DNA from: Patescibacteria group bacterium
GTDB taxonomy: Bacteria > Patescibacteriota > Patescibacteriia > SBBC01 > CAIJZX01
DNA length: 49,340 bases
NCBI GenBank assembly: GCA_038065275.1
Contig: JBBTRH010000006.1
Location: 1 to 49,340 of the forward strand
Reading direction: 5' to 3'
Part shown: positions 14,857 through 49,340 of the stretch, piece by piece
Layout of the letters: every line of letters starts with the position of its first letter
Numbering within the stretch: position 1 is the first letter of the stretch
Notes under the pieces: generated by a model
The model's input: only the letters and a program-made list of their open reading frames with translations
What the model was told of the DNA's origin: nothing
Database searches by the model: none
Position numbers and translations under genes: made by a program

Positions 14857-14885
14857 TTGACAGCGGACAAATCTTGAATTAAGGT
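14857..14885 (+). promoter_or_regulatory. sigma70-type promoter of RAYT-1
   Basis: TTGACA-17 nt-TAAGGT. Confidence 0.6.
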
Positions 14886-14912
14886 GGAATCGGTGGCTGG
14901 CACGCGCCAGCA

Positions 14913-15467
14913 ATGCCCAAGATTCCCTACGATCCGAATTACCTTTGTTTTATCACGACCGTCACGCACAAGCGACGGCCGATATTTCGCGATCAAAAAT
15001 TAGCGGAACGGTTGGGGACGATGATTATGATGGCTTGTCGGTTGAAAGGATTCGTGCCGTTGGTGTACGCGATTTTGCCGGATCATTTACACCTTCTGGT
15101 TTGCTCTCAGCACCTGTTACTACGCACACTCGAAAGTGTGCGTAGTAACAACCAAACCTCTGGCGAGGCAGGAGGCGGACTTTTCCCGCCGTTAGCAGGA
15201 CCCCGCTTGTCGGCGGTGGCCAGTCTGCCTGCGCCACAAGTCGGTGCCCTAGTAAAATCCATTAAAGGTACGTTTTCGCGGACACTGCCGCACGGAACTG
15301 TTTGGAAGCGACGGTATCATTGTTGGATGATTATTGATGGGCGCGATGCGGCTCGCGTGGTTAAATACATCACTTACAATTACCGACACTCCGGTGTGCT
15401 AGAACGGTACGGCCGGGAACCATACGTTTGGTGCGATGATGGGATGATCGAACAGATCTTGTCGTGA
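14913..15467 (+). mobile_element. REP-associated tyrosine (Y1/HUH, IS200-like) transposase RAYT-1
   Basis: FITTVTHKRRPIF, AILPDHLHLL (HUH), KSIKG, WKRRYH, catalytic-like YITYN; contains an internal REP-like palindrome at 15120-15145. Confidence 0.85.
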
Positions 15468-46616: not shown

Positions 46617-47576
46617 ATGCTGATCGATAGTATCGCCATCATCGTTCTCGGGCTCAGCCTGATTAGCCTGGCCGTCATCATCGGTCGAAAATTCCCGACC
46701 TTGGCGGCAATTGATACGTCGGCGCCGGCGGAGGCGACGGCGGGACGCAAGCGGAACATTATTGAAGAACGGCTACGGCGTAAAGTGTCTATGCTCTGGA
46801 CCAAGGTCGCCGGACAAAGTACCCCGATCGCCGTCGCTACCGGCCGGCTCTGGACCGCGGCCCATAAAAAGCTGATTGATCTTGAACACGAATACAAGGT
46901 GCGGTCACTGCCGGTCTTCCTGTCGCGGCGCCAGCGGCGGAAAATCGATCACGAAATCGCCGCGATGCTAGAACAGGCGCGGGCACTCGTTGACGACAAG
47001 GAATATGCCGCGGCCGAAGAAAAGGCGTTGCAGGCGATTCGCCTCGAACCCCGCTCGGTTCCCGCCTTCGAACTTCTCGGCCAGCTCTACCTGGTTACCA
47101 AGGAGCACGGCCACGCCAAAGAGGTGTATCAGTACTTGCTCAAGCTGACGGGCGACTCCGACGCCATCTACGAGCACCTGGGATCAGCTGATCTCGGCGC
47201 CGGACATCTCGCCGAGGCGCGCGACGAGCTCCAACACGCCGTCGAACTCAACCGCACGGTGGCCACCTATCATTTGGAACTGGCCCAGGTGTACACTGCT
47301 CTCGGCGACGCGGCTAAAGCGTTTACCAGCATTCAAGAAGCCGTTCGTCTCGAGCCGAACAACCCCAAACTGCTCGACCAGTACGTTGAAATAAGTATCG
47401 CCGCCGGCAAGAAACAGTTTGCCGAGGATGCGGTGGCCCGTATCGAGGCCGTCAACCCCGAAAACTCGAAGATCGCCGAGTGGCGCGAACGGATTACGGC
47501 GATTGAGGGTCGGCCCTTGACGAATCTCATTGAAACATCCGATACTGCCGACTCGACAACTTCCGCGCCGTTGTAG
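46617..47576 (+). CDS. Membrane-anchored tetratricopeptide repeat protein
   Basis: N-terminal TM; TPR-like A..LEP, LG..Y repeats. Confidence 0.85.
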   Translation: MLIDSIAIIVLGLSLISLAVIIGRKFPTLAAIDTSAPAEATAGRKRNIIEERLRRKVSMLWTKVAGQSTPIAVATGRLWTAAHKKLIDLEHEYKVRSLPVFLSRRQRRKIDHEIAAMLEQARALVDDKEYAAAEEKALQAIRLEPRSVPAFELLGQLYLVTKEHGHAKEVYQYLLKLTGDSDAIYEHLGSADLGAGHLAEARDELQHAVELNRTVATYHLELAQVYTALGDAAKAFTSIQEAVRLEPNNPKLLDQYVEISIAAGKKQFAEDAVARIEAVNPENSKIAEWRERITAIEGRPLTNLIETSDTADSTTSAPL

Positions 47577-47614
47577 TCCCGATGTTCCGCCAGGCAGTTG
47601 GCCCCGCTACTTCT

Positions 47615-47689
47615 GCCCACGTAGCTCAGTGGTAGAGCAGCTCCATGGTAAGGAGCAGGTCCGCGGTTCAAGCCCGCGCGTGGGCTCCA
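47615..47689 (+). tRNA. tRNA-Thr(GGT), intact
   Basis: GCCCACG/CGTGGGC acceptor, GCTCC-atGGTaa-GGAGC, TTCAAGC T loop, encoded CCA. Confidence 0.93.
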
Positions 47690-47719
47690 GAAGCGGCGGG
47701 GTGAATGACACAACACTAT

Positions 47720-47800
47720 GCCTGTCCCGCACCCGAGTGGAACAAGTGGTGCGGGGGGCTAAGGAGTAGGTCCGCGGTTCAAATCCGCGCATAGGCTCCA
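47720..47800 (+). pseudogene. tRNA-Thr(GGT)-like remnant; D arm and 5' anticodon arm replaced by a CCCGCACC...GGTGCGGG palindrome
   Basis: 5' GCCTGT pairs with 3' ATAGGC; intact 3' half taaggagtaggtccgcggttcaaatccgcgcataggctcca (47760-47800). Confidence 0.8.
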
Positions 47801-47842
47801 CGTTTCTCGCAACAACACTTTCAGGCTAAGTCACAGATGGTT

Positions 47843-47893
47843 TCCGGCAAAGCCGGATCCGGCTCCGCCGGACAAATCCGGTCATCGGCTCCA
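47843..47893 (+). pseudogene. 30-bp GGATCC palindrome fused to a tRNA-Thr-like 3' end
   Basis: tccggcaaagccggatccggctccgccgga + caaatccggtcatcggctcca. Confidence 0.7.
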
Positions 47894-47918
47894 CGTTTTC
47901 CGAAGAACAGTACATCAT

Positions 47919-48127
47919 GGGTCGGTAGCGAAGTGGTCATCCCGCACCACTTTCCTTCACAATATTATTGAGTAATCTGCATTTACGGGCAGGTGACGGA
48001 GCGGTCAATCGTACCTGACTGTAAATCAGGCGGCCTCGTGCCTACGCAGGTTCGAATCCTGCCCTGCCCACCAGATTACTCTCTCATGAAGGAAAGTGGT
48101 GCGGGACGAATCCTGCCCGGCCCACCA
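47919..48127 (+). pseudogene. Outer split tRNA-Tyr (5' 47919-47939, 3' 48107-48127) enclosing an IR cassette
   Basis: GGGTCGG pairs with CCGGCCC-ACCA; 20-bp perfect IR at 47940-47959 / 48087-48106 forms the junctions. Confidence 0.85.
47987..48073 (+). tRNA. tRNA-Tyr(GTA), intact, nested
   Basis: GGGCAGG/CCTGCCC, CCTGA-ctGTAaa-TCAGG, long variable arm, ACCA. Confidence 0.95.
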
Positions 48128-48132
48128 AATAT

Positions 48133-48459
48133 ATGTACATCGTGTACATTTTACAAAGCGTCAAAACAGCCCGGTATTATATTGGACACTGTGAAGATTT
48201 GTCTGTACGCTTAAAGAAACACAACGCAGGTAAAGTTCGCTCAACGAAATCCGGGCGGCCCTGGAAAGTTGTTCGAACGAAAAAGTATCCTGCCCGTGCC
48301 GAAACATATAGGCGAGAGAGGCAGATAAAGTCCTATAAAGGCGGGAAGGCATTTAAATCGCCACTGACCGCCACCGCTTCGAGCGGGGTGTCGGCTGGTG
48401 CCTCCATAAATCAGGCGGCCTCGCGCCTTCGCAGGTTCTCCCGCCCATTCATAAGATAA
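48133..48459 (+). CDS. GIY-YIG nuclease (small, YhbQ-like); C-terminus reads into a tRNA remnant
   Basis: VYILQS...YYIG...RLKKHN.G...STK...RPW...RERQIKSYKGG. Confidence 0.85.
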   Translation: MYIVYILQSVKTARYYIGHCEDLSVRLKKHNAGKVRSTKSGRPWKVVRTKKYPARAETYRRERQIKSYKGGKAFKSPLTATASSGVSAGASINQAASRLRRFSRPFIR

Positions 48460-48511
48460 TAAACACTGGCGGGATCCCGCCGGAGGTAGGAGAATCCTGC
48501 CCTGCCCACCA
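48407..48511 (+). pseudogene. tRNA-Tyr 3' half with a 53-nt double-hairpin insertion in the T loop
   Basis: taaatcaggcggcctcgcgccttcgcaggttc-[tcccgcc...ggcgggatcccgccggaggtagga]-gaatcctgccctgcccacca. Confidence 0.85.
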
Positions 48512-48563
48512 CGAAGACGAAAACGAAAGAAAGTTGTGCTGGGTGAGAAATCCTGCCCCCCAG

Positions 48564-48798
48564 GCCTGAGTAGCTCAGCTGGCAGAGCAACGGTTTTATC
48601 CCGCCCCTGAGAATAGGATATAGTAGGCGGGATCATCGAAGTTCTTTCAAAATCTTGCCGGAGTAGCTCAGCGGTAGAGCAACGGTTTTGTAAACCGTAG
48701 GTCGGAGGTTCAAATCCTCTCTCCGGCTCCACCGGCAAGATTTTGGGAACTTCGGGATAAACCGTAGGTCGCCGGTTCGATCCCGGCCTCAGGCTCCA
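48564..48798 (+). pseudogene. Outer tRNA-Thr-type gene split in the anticodon (5' 48564-48597, 3' 48758-48798) by a 160-nt insert
   Basis: All four stems pair perfectly (GCCTGAG/CTCAGGC, GCTC/GAGC, ACGGT/ACCGT, GCCGG/CCGGC), TCCA end; only position 35 is replaced by the insert. Confidence 0.9.
48657..48731 (+). tRNA. tRNA-Thr(TGT), intact, nested
   Basis: GCCGGAG/CTCCGGC, ACGGT-ttTGTaa-ACCGT, TTCAAAT, TCCA. Confidence 0.95.
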
Positions 48799-48866
48799 GA
48801 GAAGTGTAAGTTAATTAAGTTGATTAGTTAATTAAGTTGTCAAAGTTGGTGGCCGGAAAGGAAATT

Positions 48867-49238
48867 ATGGCACAATCATTCTATGAACTTGATATTTGGA
48901 AGAACGGATACAAATTGGTTCTCAAAGTCTATCGCGCCACTGAACGCTTTCCGACTTCGGAAAGGTACGGTCTGATAGATCAGCTGAGGCGATCGGCCAA
49001 CGCAGTTATCGCCAATATCGCCGAAAGTCAAGGCCGGTACTCCTACAGTGATAAAATTCGCGTCCTCTACCAATCCCGCGGCGAGATATTTGAAACAAGA
49101 AGTCATCTCCAGGTCGCCCATGGTCTCGGATATTTTCCAGCCGAAGAATTCAAAAAATTAGATCAAGCGTATGAAGGCTTGCTAGTTGGACTCAACACAT
49201 ATATAAAGTATCTAGCCAAAGCCCGCACGACAAAATAA
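48867..49238 (+). CDS. Four-helix bundle protein (23S rRNA IVP-like / bAvd-like fold)
   Basis: FYELDIW...FPTSERYGLIDQLRRSA..V.ANIAES.GR...SRGE..ET; flanked by AT-rich TTAATTAA micro-repeats. Confidence 0.88.
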   Translation: MAQSFYELDIWKNGYKLVLKVYRATERFPTSERYGLIDQLRRSANAVIANIAESQGRYSYSDKIRVLYQSRGEIFETRSHLQVAHGLGYFPAEEFKKLDQAYEGLLVGLNTYIKYLAKARTTK

Positions 49239-49289
49239 CGAAAAACTTAATTAACTCAATTTCCTCAATTAACTCAATCAACAAACCCT

Positions 49290-49340
49290 ATGTCCCAAGA
49301 CAACCTGATCAAACTCCAGTGTACGGTGTGCAAGCACATC
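49290..49340 (+). CDS. rpmG: 50S ribosomal protein L33 (partial, runs off the window)
   Basis: MSQDNLIKLQCTVCKHI; CxxC; follows the tRNA-Thr/Tyr/Thr cluster. Confidence 0.8.
   Translation, partial: MSQDNLIKLQCTVCKHI

What the first reader, a model, noticed from the sequence alone, without database searches (positions are those of the whole stretch)
48564..48798. Nested tRNA: an intact tRNA-Thr(TGT) inside the anticodon of another complete tRNA-Thr gene
Seen: the outer halves (34 + 41 nt) form a perfect cloverleaf with CCA and lack only the middle anticodon base. The 160-nt insert (48598-48757) is bounded by TATCCCG...CGGGATA and carries an intact tRNA-Thr(TGT) wrapped in further IRs (cgaagttc..aaaatcttgccgg / ccggcaagatttt..gaacttcg). 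The two genes differ in acceptor, D loop and T stem, so this is not a simple tandem duplication. The inner trailer is complementary to the inner tRNA's own 5' end and could compete with its acceptor stem. AT is repeated at both junctions, so clean excision leaving one copy would give anticodon TAT on a Thr body. Inference: an IR-bounded mini-element inserts into a host tRNA while delivering a replacement isoacceptor; a decoy attachment site or a processable nested precursor are alternatives. Known integrative elements restore only a tRNA fragment, and I know of no described tRNA-in-cognate-tRNA cassette.
Basis: partly seen in the sequence, partly recalled or inferred. Interest (0 to 1): 0.9.

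Follow-up and report, generated by a model that had tools for sequence, protein, structure and literature searches.

The report
Russian-doll tRNA gene replacement cassette
A small palindrome-ended DNA cassette that carries its own threonine tRNA gene has landed exactly inside the anticodon of the resident threonine tRNA gene, killing it and replacing it, and related genomes show the same trick repeated layer upon layer.

Summary
Removing 159 nt (48599-48757) restores a perfect cloverleaf; the insert holds the genome's only tRNA-Thr(UGU). Independent assemblies carry both junctions.

The arrangement recurs in 8 of 29 related loci and in 7 metagenome loci, up to three layers deep. Only the innermost tRNA is intact in every locus; outer layers are often truncated. 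Empty and filled alleles exist, and cassette types invade each other's cargo in either order.

In this genome 16 of 47 tRNA genes have cognate half-gene relics beside them. A sister tRNA-Ala cassette has the same architecture but holds a small GIY-YIG nuclease gene where the Thr cassette has a 34-nt hairpin. No splicing endonuclease, RtcB or intron RNA family was found, and no sole-copy tRNA is interrupted.

Best reading: an ORF-less member of a DNA-level family of tRNA-replacement cassettes, probably spread by nuclease-triggered repair. The enzyme is not shown. Five literature searches found no description.

The parts
48564..48598 (+). Outer tRNA-Thr 5' half (positions 1-35): acceptor, D arm, anticodon stem 5' strand, loop TTT and A48598 (= position 35, G in all four aligned relatives)
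48599..48632 (+). Cassette unit 1: 34-nt hairpin, 7-bp stem TCCCGCC/GGCGGGA with an AT-rich loop. It sits where the sister tRNA-Ala cassette has a stem enclosing a GIY-YIG ORF
48633..48656 (+). Cassette unit 2 leader, complementary to the trailer. Two compensatory changes are seen across relatives
48657..48731 (+). Inner (cargo) tRNA-Thr(UGU) with encoded CCA; the only tRNA-Thr(UGU) found in the genome
48732..48757 (+). Cassette trailer: pairs with the leader and with the first 5 nt of the cargo tRNA; ends in CGGGA, complementary to the cassette's first 5 nt TCCCG
48758..48798 (+). Outer tRNA-Thr 3' half (T36 to CCA)
47987..48073 (+). Context: intact tRNA-Tyr(GTA) of the conserved Thr-Tyr-Thr cluster
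48107..48127 (+). Context: relic of a tRNA-Tyr 3' end (matches tRNA positions 67-87, 95%)
48133..48459 (+). Context: small GIY-YIG nuclease ORF (Pfam domain over residues 1-67) lying between the intact tRNA-Tyr and a displaced tRNA-Tyr 3' half
48407..48511 (+). Context: displaced tRNA-Tyr 3' half starting at T35 (48407-48438 and 48492-48511). Its T loop is split by hairpins of the same TCCCG...CGGGA kind (48439-48474 and the next unit)
47760..47800 (+). Context: relic 3' half of tRNA-Thr(GGT), 88% identical to positions 35-75 of the intact gene at 47615-47689

Best explanation
The 235-nt feature is a dead tRNA-Thr(UGU) gene. It was split at the DNA level, between anticodon positions 35 and 36 (TTTTG|TAAAC), by a 159-nt cassette bounded by TCCCG...CGGGA. 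The cassette has two units: a 34-nt hairpin, and a complete tRNA-Thr(UGU) gene held between a complementary leader and trailer. The cargo gene now supplies the cell's only tRNA-Thr(UGU). Because the cassette brings a replacement, no splicing is needed and the outer halves are free to decay; here the first sign of decay is G35A. The cassette is the ORF-less member of a family in which unit 1 is a stem enclosing a small stand-alone GIY-YIG nuclease gene of the UPF0213/Slx1-like kind. I think the most likely route of spread is homing. The nuclease, supplied in cis or in trans, breaks an uninterrupted cognate tRNA gene in or near its anticodon loop. Repair then copies the cassette from an interrupted allele, using the split tRNA halves and the conserved neighbouring tRNA genes as homology. 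The cargo tRNA offers a fresh target, so cassettes overwrite one another and build Russian-doll loci. SHOWN: the anatomy, precise empty and filled alleles, layering with only the innermost copy intact, reversed nesting orders, the sister cassette with a GIY-YIG ORF, and no need for splicing in this genome. INFERRED: that the GIY-YIG protein is the mobilising nuclease, where it cuts, that repair is homologous, and that the leader-trailer helix serves processing of the cargo tRNA. My odds: DNA-level replacement cassette with a dead outer gene, about 0.85. GIY-YIG-triggered homing as the route, about 0.4-0.45. The confidence given below is for the whole statement.
For: Anatomy. Homologues with a TGT outer anticodon: G017 85% and G014 79% over all 235 nt, aligned. 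Empty and filled pairs: the cargo tRNA of a type B cassette is intact in L012 and split exactly at TTTTG|TAAAC by a type A cassette in L088; the intact innermost tRNA of L009 is near-identical to the split outer tRNA of L007. Reversed orders: type B lies inside type A cargo in L011, type A lies inside type B cargo in L088/L089, and a third type lies inside type A cargo in L009. In each of the 15 nested or relic Thr loci read (8 of the 29 related loci L006-L034; L044; and 6 of the 7 metagenome hits, L057, L063, L088, L089, L100, L102) ARAGORN finds one intact tRNA-Thr(tgt), always the innermost. Outer layers are truncated in L011, L012, L009, L030, L044 and L100. Same-genus genomes G001 and G003 have a compact un-nested Thr-Tyr-Thr cluster. 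The strict type A motif occurs in only 4 other species genomes of the whole GTDB set (5 stretches, 1 of them chance) and is patchy across three families. Sister cassette in G000 contig C9: the outer Ala 5' part ends at G35, then a stem encloses the GIY-YIG ORF, then the shared motif GGATCCTCGA, leader, intact tRNA-Ala and a trailer ending CGGGA, then the outer Ala 3' half from C36. In G000 16 of 47 tRNA genes have cognate fragments within 500 nt. Of 12 small GIY-YIG frames, 9 lie within 400 nt of an intact tRNA gene; in three relatives the figure is 6 of 13. TCCCG...CGGGA hairpins: 37 of 70 lie within 500 nt of a tRNA gene, against 3.84% of the genome. No splicing needed: no PF01974 and no PF01139 in a genome scored 100% complete, no intron or ribozyme family, and every amino acid has an uninterrupted tRNA, including His at C11:11696. 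Precedent: the GIY-YIG homing endonuclease SegB recognises the T-psi-C stem-loop motif of tRNA genes, drives inheritance of the T4 tRNA region and drives segmental amplification of tRNA genes (PMC2330249 abstract; PMC13096335 abstract and section 10).
Against: This cassette holds no nuclease gene. The nearest GIY-YIG ORF (48133-48459) belongs to the tRNA-Tyr relic structure, not to the cassette. The small GIY-YIG proteins carry only the catalytic domain. They have no tblastn match in 50,697 phage records, and their nearest solved relatives are UPF0213 and the structure-specific nuclease SLX1, not sequence-specific homing enzymes. [quoted passage not shown] The outer halves next to the cassette differ between genomes even in the anticodon stem, so long co-conversion tracts are not evident. 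The homology arms are only 34 and 41 nt. The shared ends TCCCG/CGGGA and the recurrent junction just after TG in several different tRNA species look like the signature of an enzyme acting on element ends, which simple homing does not require. The outer stems of the window, L006, L007 and L088 are still fully paired with compensatory differences (helices 1, 3 and 10 are 96-100% paired). I read this as recent, independent insertions, but it is also what selection on a functional outer tRNA would give. No RNA data exist.
Confidence: 0.55

Rival explanations
1. Transposition rather than homing. The TCCCG...CGGGA-bounded stem-loops are REP- or MITE-like single-strand elements, moved by an HUH tyrosine (IS200/RAYT-like) transposase or another end-recognising enzyme. 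They insert 3' of a short target (YTG) exposed in the loops of tRNA genes. Cognate-only survivors are then a result of selection, because hitting a non-cognate single-copy tRNA gene is lethal.
For: Four PF01797 (Y1_Tnp) frames with HUH-like motifs are present in G000, one of them in the window at 14883-15467. Insertions are precise, without target duplication, and lie just after TG in Thr, Ala, Cys, Phe, Tyr and Leu. Plain hairpins of the same kind stand in tandem (CGGGA|TCCCG), also inside T loops of relics, and 33 of 70 lie away from tRNA genes. Type B cassette ends match free-standing hairpins such as C8:6132 and C25:27894.
Against: The Y1_Tnp frames are not flanked by these hairpins. Every cargo-bearing cassette seen sits in its cognate tRNA gene: all Thr loci, plus Ala, Cys and Phe. 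None was seen in a neutral intergenic site, where selection would allow it. IS200/IS605 ends are subterminal hairpins in direct orientation, not a terminal inverted repeat.
Confidence: 0.2
2. No dedicated mobility. The nested and half-gene structures are by-products of breakage and sloppy repair at structure-prone tRNA genes (one-ended invasion plus end joining, slippage between palindromes). They are later passed between relatives by ordinary recombination through the conserved tRNA cluster.
For: Other arrangements in the same genome fit one-ended repair: intact tRNA, then GIY-YIG, then a displaced 3' half (Tyr; Val), and three tandem 3' halves of tRNA-Leu(GAG). The outer halves of tRNA-Phe are 100% identical to the inner gene, as after an in-situ duplication. 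In G004 the unit of Tyr 3' half plus GIY-YIG is tandemly repeated.
Against: The same two-unit architecture with the same ends and the motif GGATCCTCGA recurs with different cargo (Thr, Ala) and in different families. Insertions are exact to the base in independent events. Leader and trailer keep pairing through compensatory changes, and in L063 through a wholly different sequence.
Confidence: 0.1
3. RNA intron. The insert is removed from the outer pre-tRNA and the halves are ligated, so both outer and inner tRNAs are made (a processable nested precursor), by a bacterial splicing route not yet known.
For: The insertion is exact and lies in the anticodon loop, as for known tRNA introns. The cassette ends pair into a helix abutting the loop. 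Outer stems are intact with compensatory differences in four loci. A genome of the same class (G032) has tRNA-like genes with 46-60-nt inserts in the anticodon loop and no inner tRNA (not followed up).
Against: No group I or II intron or ribozyme match at E up to 10. No EndA and no RtcB. The junction geometry is a 4x3 internal loop, not bulge-helix-bulge. The product here would carry anticodon UAU on a Thr body, while a separate tRNA-Ile(UAU) exists. Outer layers are truncated in at least 6 loci, and it is never the inner copy that has decayed. No sole-copy tRNA of G000 is interrupted.
Confidence: 0.05
4. Remnant of a classical integrase-mediated island, or an assembly chimera of two strains.
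For: tRNA genes are the usual integration sites. The feature lies 540 nt from a contig end.
Against: An integrase product would be host 5' half plus element 3' half, not a full gene between two halves. The only two PF00589 frames are on other contigs. Both junctions are carried by contigs from three further runs of two studies and by homologous loci in other genomes.
Confidence: 0.02

Closest known systems
Free-standing GIY-YIG homing endonuclease SegB of T-even phages (PMC2330249 abstract; PMC13096335 abstract and section 10)
   Same: A GIY-YIG nuclease gene embedded among tRNA genes. Its recognition site includes the conserved T-psi-C stem-loop motif of tRNA genes. It causes non-reciprocal transfer of itself with neighbouring tRNA genes and segmental amplification of tRNA genes. 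SegB homologues are enriched within 1 kb of tRNA genes in phage genomes.
   Different: SegB sits between tRNA genes and splits none. No replacement tRNA nested in its own target has been described. It is about twice as long and has a DNA-binding part. The proteins here have no tblastn match in phage records and lie nearest to UPF0213/SLX1. The setting here is a cellular genome of about 1.1 Mb, not a phage.
Integrative elements (phages, ICEs, islands) that target tRNA genes (recalled general knowledge, no call)
   Same: They insert in the anticodon or T loop region of a tRNA gene and keep the cell alive by bringing a copy of what they displace. They leave displaced tRNA fragments as scars, as in the Tyr, Val and Leu arrangements of this genome.
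   Different: They restore only the 3' segment through an identity block, use tyrosine or serine integrases, and are kilobases long. Here a whole tRNA gene of different sequence lies between both halves of the old gene, in 159 nt, with no integrase nearby.
Intervening sequences of rRNA genes in CPR bacteria that hold GIY-YIG or 23S_rRNA_IVP ORFs and are neither group I nor group II introns (PMC11270868, passages)
   Same: The same lineage, the same two small ORF families (both flank this locus), and palindromic stems inserted at loops of structured RNA genes.
   Different: That paper does not mention tRNA (0 occurrences). rRNA hosts are thought to stay functional after excision or fragmentation, whereas here the host gene is abandoned and replaced.
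tRNA introns: bacterial group I introns in anticodon loops; archaeal BHB introns, split and tri-split tRNAs, and transposing tRNA introns of Thermoproteales (PMC10714607 passage; the rest recalled)
   Same: An exact interruption of the anticodon loop. Complementary leader and trailer sequences recall the way split-tRNA halves pair.
   Different: No ribozyme core, no BHB motif, no EndA or RtcB. The interrupted gene decays instead of being maintained.

Membership tests
Group I intron in a tRNA anticodon loop | Catalytic core (P3-P9) detectable as Rfam Intron_gpI | tested here: not met
   cmscan at E up to 10 over 47400-49340 gave 9 matches; only the 3 tRNA matches passed their gathering score and none of the 9 was an intron or ribozyme family. 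The insert is 159 nt, of which 75 are a tRNA.
Group I intron in a tRNA anticodon loop | 5' exon ends in U paired with G in P1; intron ends in G | tested here: inconclusive
   By homology the 5' exon ends in G35 (A here) and the insert ends in A. With the one-base ambiguity other cuts can be drawn.
Archaeal-type (BHB) tRNA intron | Splicing endonuclease (PF01974) and RtcB ligase (PF01139) encoded | tested here: not met
   0 matches each in G000, scored 100% complete; the controls ring in archaea.
Archaeal-type (BHB) tRNA intron | Bulge-helix-bulge at the two splice sites | tested here: not met
   The junctions face each other across a 4x3 internal loop next to the anticodon stem. This was judged by eye; no BHB scoring tool was run.
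Homing-endonuclease mobile element | Filled and empty alleles differing by an exact insertion | tested here: met
   L012 against L088, and L009 against L007.
Homing-endonuclease mobile element | Endonuclease gene inside or beside the element | tested here: inconclusive
   Absent from this cassette. Present in the same position of the sister tRNA-Ala cassette and beside relic structures of Tyr, Ser, Gln and Val.
Homing-endonuclease mobile element | The nuclease cuts the empty allele and spares the filled one | not testable with these tools
   Needs a biochemical assay.
SegB-like Seg endonucleases | Sequence similarity beyond the GIY-YIG motif; C-terminal DNA-binding domain | tested here: not met
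   No tblastn match in the phage collection at E 1e-3. TIGR01453 scores 16.3 bits against a cut-off of 56. The Pfam domain spans residues 1-67 of the 108-aa frame. The nearest solved structure is UPF0213.
IS200/IS605 or REP-RAYT elements | Y1 HUH transposase encoded in the genome | tested here: met
   4 PF01797 frames; the best scores 35.2 bits.
IS200/IS605 or REP-RAYT elements | Transposase gene flanked by the repeats it moves; copies at many unrelated sites | tested here: not met
   The flanks of the 4 frames lack the hairpins. Cargo cassettes were seen only in cognate tRNA genes. Plain hairpins are scattered, 33 of 70 away from tRNA genes.
Integrase-mediated tRNA-targeting island | Integrase next to the tRNA; direct repeat of the tRNA 3' segment only | tested here: not met
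   The two PF00589 frames lie on contigs C17 and C11. A full gene lies between both halves.

The most novel reading that the evidence does not exclude
CPR bacteria harbour a class of selfish elements, not described so far, that solve the 'how to sit inside an essential RNA gene' problem by replacement instead of splicing. A palindrome-bounded cassette, with or without a stand-alone Slx1/UPF0213-like GIY-YIG nuclease, enters the anticodon loop of the cognate tRNA gene, destroys it and supplies its own copy. That copy is the next cassette's target, so tRNA genes are serially overwritten and horizontally exchanged, leaving Russian-doll graveyards at a third of the tRNA loci. On this reading, tRNA identity sets in these tiny genomes are continuously re-seeded by mobile DNA.
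Probability: 0.5. Interest if true: 0.85.

Novelty: new variant of a known kind. Interest (0 to 1): 0.78.

Why it matters
If this is right, three things follow. First, it adds a third strategy for mobile DNA living in essential genes, beside self-splicing (introns, inteins) and partial restoration (integrative islands). That strategy is full replacement of the host gene, which removes any need for RNA processing and explains how such elements can thrive in bacteria that lack tRNA splicing. Second, single-copy tRNA genes of CPR bacteria would be turned over horizontally. That matters for using tRNAs as markers, for tRNA annotation (half genes and nested genes confuse finders), and for how aminoacyl-tRNA synthetase and tRNA pairs co-evolve. 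Third, it gives the very common small GIY-YIG proteins of these genomes a testable role. The layered loci are also a natural record of the order of invasions.

Tried and rejected
ARAGORN with introns allowed (0-400 nt) did not report the outer gene on the native sequence. Its three intron calls elsewhere in the genome (C17, C32 twice) were not pursued.

The Rfam scan at E up to 10 found no intron or ribozyme family.

The corrected pattern, run over 401 genomes of the class, was too strict. It missed G014, whose 3' junction reads TAAAG. Of 7 genomes with a match only G054 was a true cassette, and the reversed-pattern control gave 1. That count is no measure of spread.

The genome-contig scan with the type A leader motif gave 5 stretches, 1 of them a chance hit in coding DNA.

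It reported 120 stretches and listed 80 loci. Of those 80, 73 were chance matches without a tRNA context and were dropped after script inspection; 7 were kept.

The promoter scan found no promoter in the cassette. The idea that the junction plus hairpin loop form a -35/-10 pair (TTGTCC, 17 nt, TATAGT in G017 and G020) stays an untested observation.

No RNA holder was listed among the public runs, so expression and splicing could not be examined. The 'joints' that skip the insert have short sides (20-27 nt) and foreign letters between them. I read them as other organisms' tRNA genes, not as empty alleles.

The search for GIY-YIG relatives in phages found nothing.

One NCBIfam call failed because a third reference contained a stop codon. 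It was repeated without that reference.

Decoy att site: nothing supports it. Supplementary files of papers were closed; Supplementary Data of PMC13096335 and the tables of PMC11270868 could hold tRNA-linked GIY-YIG cases that I could not see.

Structure prediction, complex prediction, the protein atlas and the large protein searches were not used.
Full report
WHAT IS THERE. The window is a whole 49.3-kb contig of a 1.09-Mb, 33-contig genome scored 100% complete. Its last 2 kb hold the conserved tRNA cluster Thr(GGT)-Tyr(GTA)-Thr(TGT). At 48564-48798 the sequence reads as follows:
- 35 nt of a tRNA, from the acceptor to anticodon position 35;
- a 34-nt hairpin with stem TCCCGCC/GGCGGGA;
- a 24-nt leader;
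- a complete tRNA-Thr(TGT) with CCA (48657-48731; ARAGORN; Rfam 75.5 bits);
- a 26-nt trailer that pairs with the leader and with the first 5 nt of the inner tRNA, and ends in CGGGA;
- the remaining 41 nt of the outer tRNA.
Cutting 159 nt out in a script gives a canonical 76-nt cloverleaf. Cuts of 158, 160 or 161 nt do not. Contigs of three further runs from two studies carry the junctions without a single difference, so the feature is not a chimera of one assembly.

ONE CORRECTION. Four homologous nested loci (G017, G014, G054 and a metagenome contig) align over the whole feature. All have TTTTG before the insert where the window has TTTTA. The outer gene is thus a tRNA-Thr(TGT) gene with a G35A substitution. 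The insert is 48599-48757 and sits between positions 35 and 36, with a one-base T ambiguity. The 'TAT on a Thr body' is a mutation of a disabled gene, not a designed product. The genome has its own tRNA-Ile(TAT) on contig C9.

IT RECURS AND IT IS LAYERED. Of the 29 related loci fetched around tRNA-Thr genes (L006-L034), 8 show a nested or relic structure: L006, L007, L009, L011, L012, L014, L026 and L030. L044 from a class-wide search adds one more. A metagenome scan for 'tRNA-Thr 5' half followed by TCCCG' adds 7 of the 80 loci listed; the other 73 were chance hits and were dropped. At least three cassette types share the ends (T)CCCG...CGGG(A) and the site TTTTG|TAAAC but have unrelated leader and trailer sequences.

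Loci hold up to three layers. L088 is an old relic that contains a type B cassette, whose cargo tRNA is in turn split by a type A cassette. L011 is the reverse, with a type A cargo split by type B. L009 has a third type inside a type A cargo. Two pairs of alleles differ by exactly the cassette: the type B cargo is intact in L012 and split in L088, and the innermost tRNA of L009 equals, bar one base, the split outer tRNA of L007.

In all 15 loci where the downstream gene could be read, the one intact tRNA-Thr(TGT) is the innermost. Outer layers have lost D arms, acceptor strands or T arms in L009, L011, L012, L030, L044 and L100. Same-genus genomes G001 and G003 have a compact, un-nested cluster with a different tRNA-Thr(TGT). 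G004 keeps the type A leader remnant and cargo but no outer halves. The strict type A leader motif occurs in only four other species genomes of the GTDB set. Together these results argue for repeated, independent, exact DNA insertions, not for one inherited oddity.

THE WIDER FAMILY IN THIS GENOME. I blasted the 46 ARAGORN tRNAs against the tRNA-masked genome and added the tRNA-His that only Rfam found. By this count 16 of 47 tRNA genes have fragments of themselves within 500 nt. tRNA-Phe and tRNA-Cys are nested like tRNA-Thr. tRNA-Leu(GAG) is followed by three tandem 3' halves. Tyr, Val, Gln, Ser and others show an intact gene, a small GIY-YIG ORF and a displaced half.

The tRNA-Ala(TGC) locus is the key. 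The outer 5' part ends at G35. A stem beginning TCCCG then encloses a GIY-YIG ORF between 15-nt perfect inverted repeats. After it come the motif GGATCCTCGA, a leader, an intact tRNA-Ala and a trailer ending CGGGA. The outer 3' half follows from C36. This is the architecture of the window's cassette, with an ORF where the window has a 34-nt hairpin. I therefore read the Thr cassette as an ORF-less derivative.

Where I could read them, the junctions fall just after a G that follows T in the anticodon loop: Thr, Ala, Cys, Phe, Tyr and Leu. Nine of 12 small GIY-YIG frames lie within 400 nt of an intact tRNA gene, and 6 of 13 do so in three relatives. Hairpins with TCCCG...CGGGA ends and stems of at least 7 bp are enriched near tRNA genes, 37 of 70 against 3.84% of the genome.

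IS THE OUTER GENE SPLICED? I found nothing that would do it and nothing that needs it.
- No intron or ribozyme family matched.
- No splicing endonuclease and no RtcB were found.
- The junctions face each other across an internal loop, not a bulge-helix-bulge.
- Every amino acid is served by an uninterrupted gene.
- Decay always hits outer copies.

Against this stands one result: the outer stems of the four best-kept loci are 96-100% paired, with compensatory differences. I attribute that to insertion into already different resident genes, as the empty and filled pairs show, but only RNA data can settle it, and none were available. The leader-trailer helix does show two compensatory changes among type A copies, and a wholly different but still complementary sequence in L063. 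It is therefore kept by selection or by palindrome-templated repair. A role in releasing the cargo tRNA is my inference.

HOW IT MOVES. This part is inferred. The strongest clue is cognate specificity: every cargo-bearing cassette seen sits in a gene for the same tRNA. A homology-guided process such as homing gives that for free. The GIY-YIG ORF in the sister cassette, and the phage precedent SegB, make a nuclease-triggered route plausible. SegB is a GIY-YIG enzyme that recognises the T-psi-C motif of tRNA genes, drives inheritance of the tRNA region and amplifies tRNA genes (PMC2330249, abstract; PMC13096335, abstract and section 10).

There are caveats.
- These proteins are catalytic domain only.
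- They have no phage match.
- They are closest to UPF0213 and to the structure-specific nuclease SLX1. That fits cutting of extruded stem-loops better than reading of a long site.
- The conserved element ends and the 'after TG' rule look like an end-recognising enzyme.
- The genome has four IS200/RAYT-like Y1 frames.
I therefore give homing about 0.4-0.45, transposition about 0.2, unspecialised break repair about 0.1 and RNA splicing about 0.05.

COMPARISON AND NOVELTY. The feature works like a homing or integrative element that protects its host by restoring what it breaks. It differs in restoring the whole gene with a foreign copy nested inside the old one, in 159 nt, and in serial self-overwriting. 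It fails the tested membership criteria for group I introns, BHB introns, integrase islands and SegB-like enzymes (see Membership tests).

Five full-text searches and passages of PMC11270868 and PMC10714607 gave no description of a tRNA gene nested in its cognate tRNA gene, nor of GIY-YIG-linked tRNA replacement in CPR bacteria. The library lacks most subscription journals, and supplements were closed. I rate it a new variant of a known kind, with a fair chance of being a class of its own once the enzyme is known.

Noticed in passing
window 48867-49238 (ORF), with flanks at about 48805-48840 and 49243-49285: A 23S_rRNA_IVP / four-helix-bundle ORF (Pfam 3.7e-30, TIGR02436) sits between the nested tRNA-Thr and the start of an rpmG-like gene. 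It is bracketed by AT-rich inverted repeats (TTAATTAAG-type). The same insert follows the nested tRNA in G017 and G020 but not in G014 or G054, so it looks like a second, independent palindromic insertion.
   Followed up: partly
window 47987-48511: The sequence runs: intact tRNA-Tyr; a 21-nt relic of a Tyr 3' end; a GIY-YIG ORF starting 5 nt after that relic's CCA; then a displaced Tyr 3' half from T35, whose T loop is split by two TCCCG...CGGGA hairpins. In same-genus G004 the unit 'Tyr 3' half plus GIY-YIG' is tandemly repeated (L008).
   Followed up: partly
G000 contigs C9:12521-12961, C9:16280-16850, C25:21380-21680, C9:14120-14760: Genome-wide tRNA graveyards. There are three tandem 3' halves after tRNA-Leu(GAG). 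tRNA-Phe is nested between halves 100% identical to itself. tRNA-Cys is nested with TCCCG/CGGGA ends. tRNA-Ala is nested together with a GIY-YIG ORF. In all, 16 of 47 tRNA genes have cognate fragments within 500 nt.
   Followed up: partly
window 14883-15467 (+); also G000 C2:3236-3733, C12:73118-73783, C16:1011-1571: Four IS200/RAYT-like (PF01797) frames with HUH-type motifs. None is flanked by the tRNA-associated hairpins. They are possible movers of the hairpin family, untested.
   Followed up: partly
G000 C11:11696-11769: tRNA-His(GTG) with an unusual T loop, missed by ARAGORN and found by Rfam at 49.7 bits. A GIY-YIG ORF starts 138 nt downstream of it.
   Followed up: yes
L175 (G032:C1:135400-136400), about 306-409, 431-548 and 669-801: A one-contig genome of the same class has a cluster of tRNA-like genes with about 30-60-nt AT-rich inserts in the anticodon loop and no inner tRNA, without the TCCCG/CGGGA ends. 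If any of them is a sole copy, this class would need a tRNA-splicing route. That bears on the intron rival.
   Followed up: no
L006 and L011 5' junctions; window 48594-48625: In G017 and G020 the target's TTG plus the cassette's first bases read TTGTCC, followed after 17 nt by TATAGT in the hairpin loop. That is a sigma-70-like pair which could drive the cargo tRNA. The window has TTATCC, and the promoter scan did not list it.
   Followed up: partly
G000 C9:4676-4748 and the tRNA list: The genome has tRNA-Ile(TAT) and only two CAT tRNAs, so AUA seems to be read by a UAU anticodon rather than by a lysidine tRNA. tilS was not searched.
   Followed up: no
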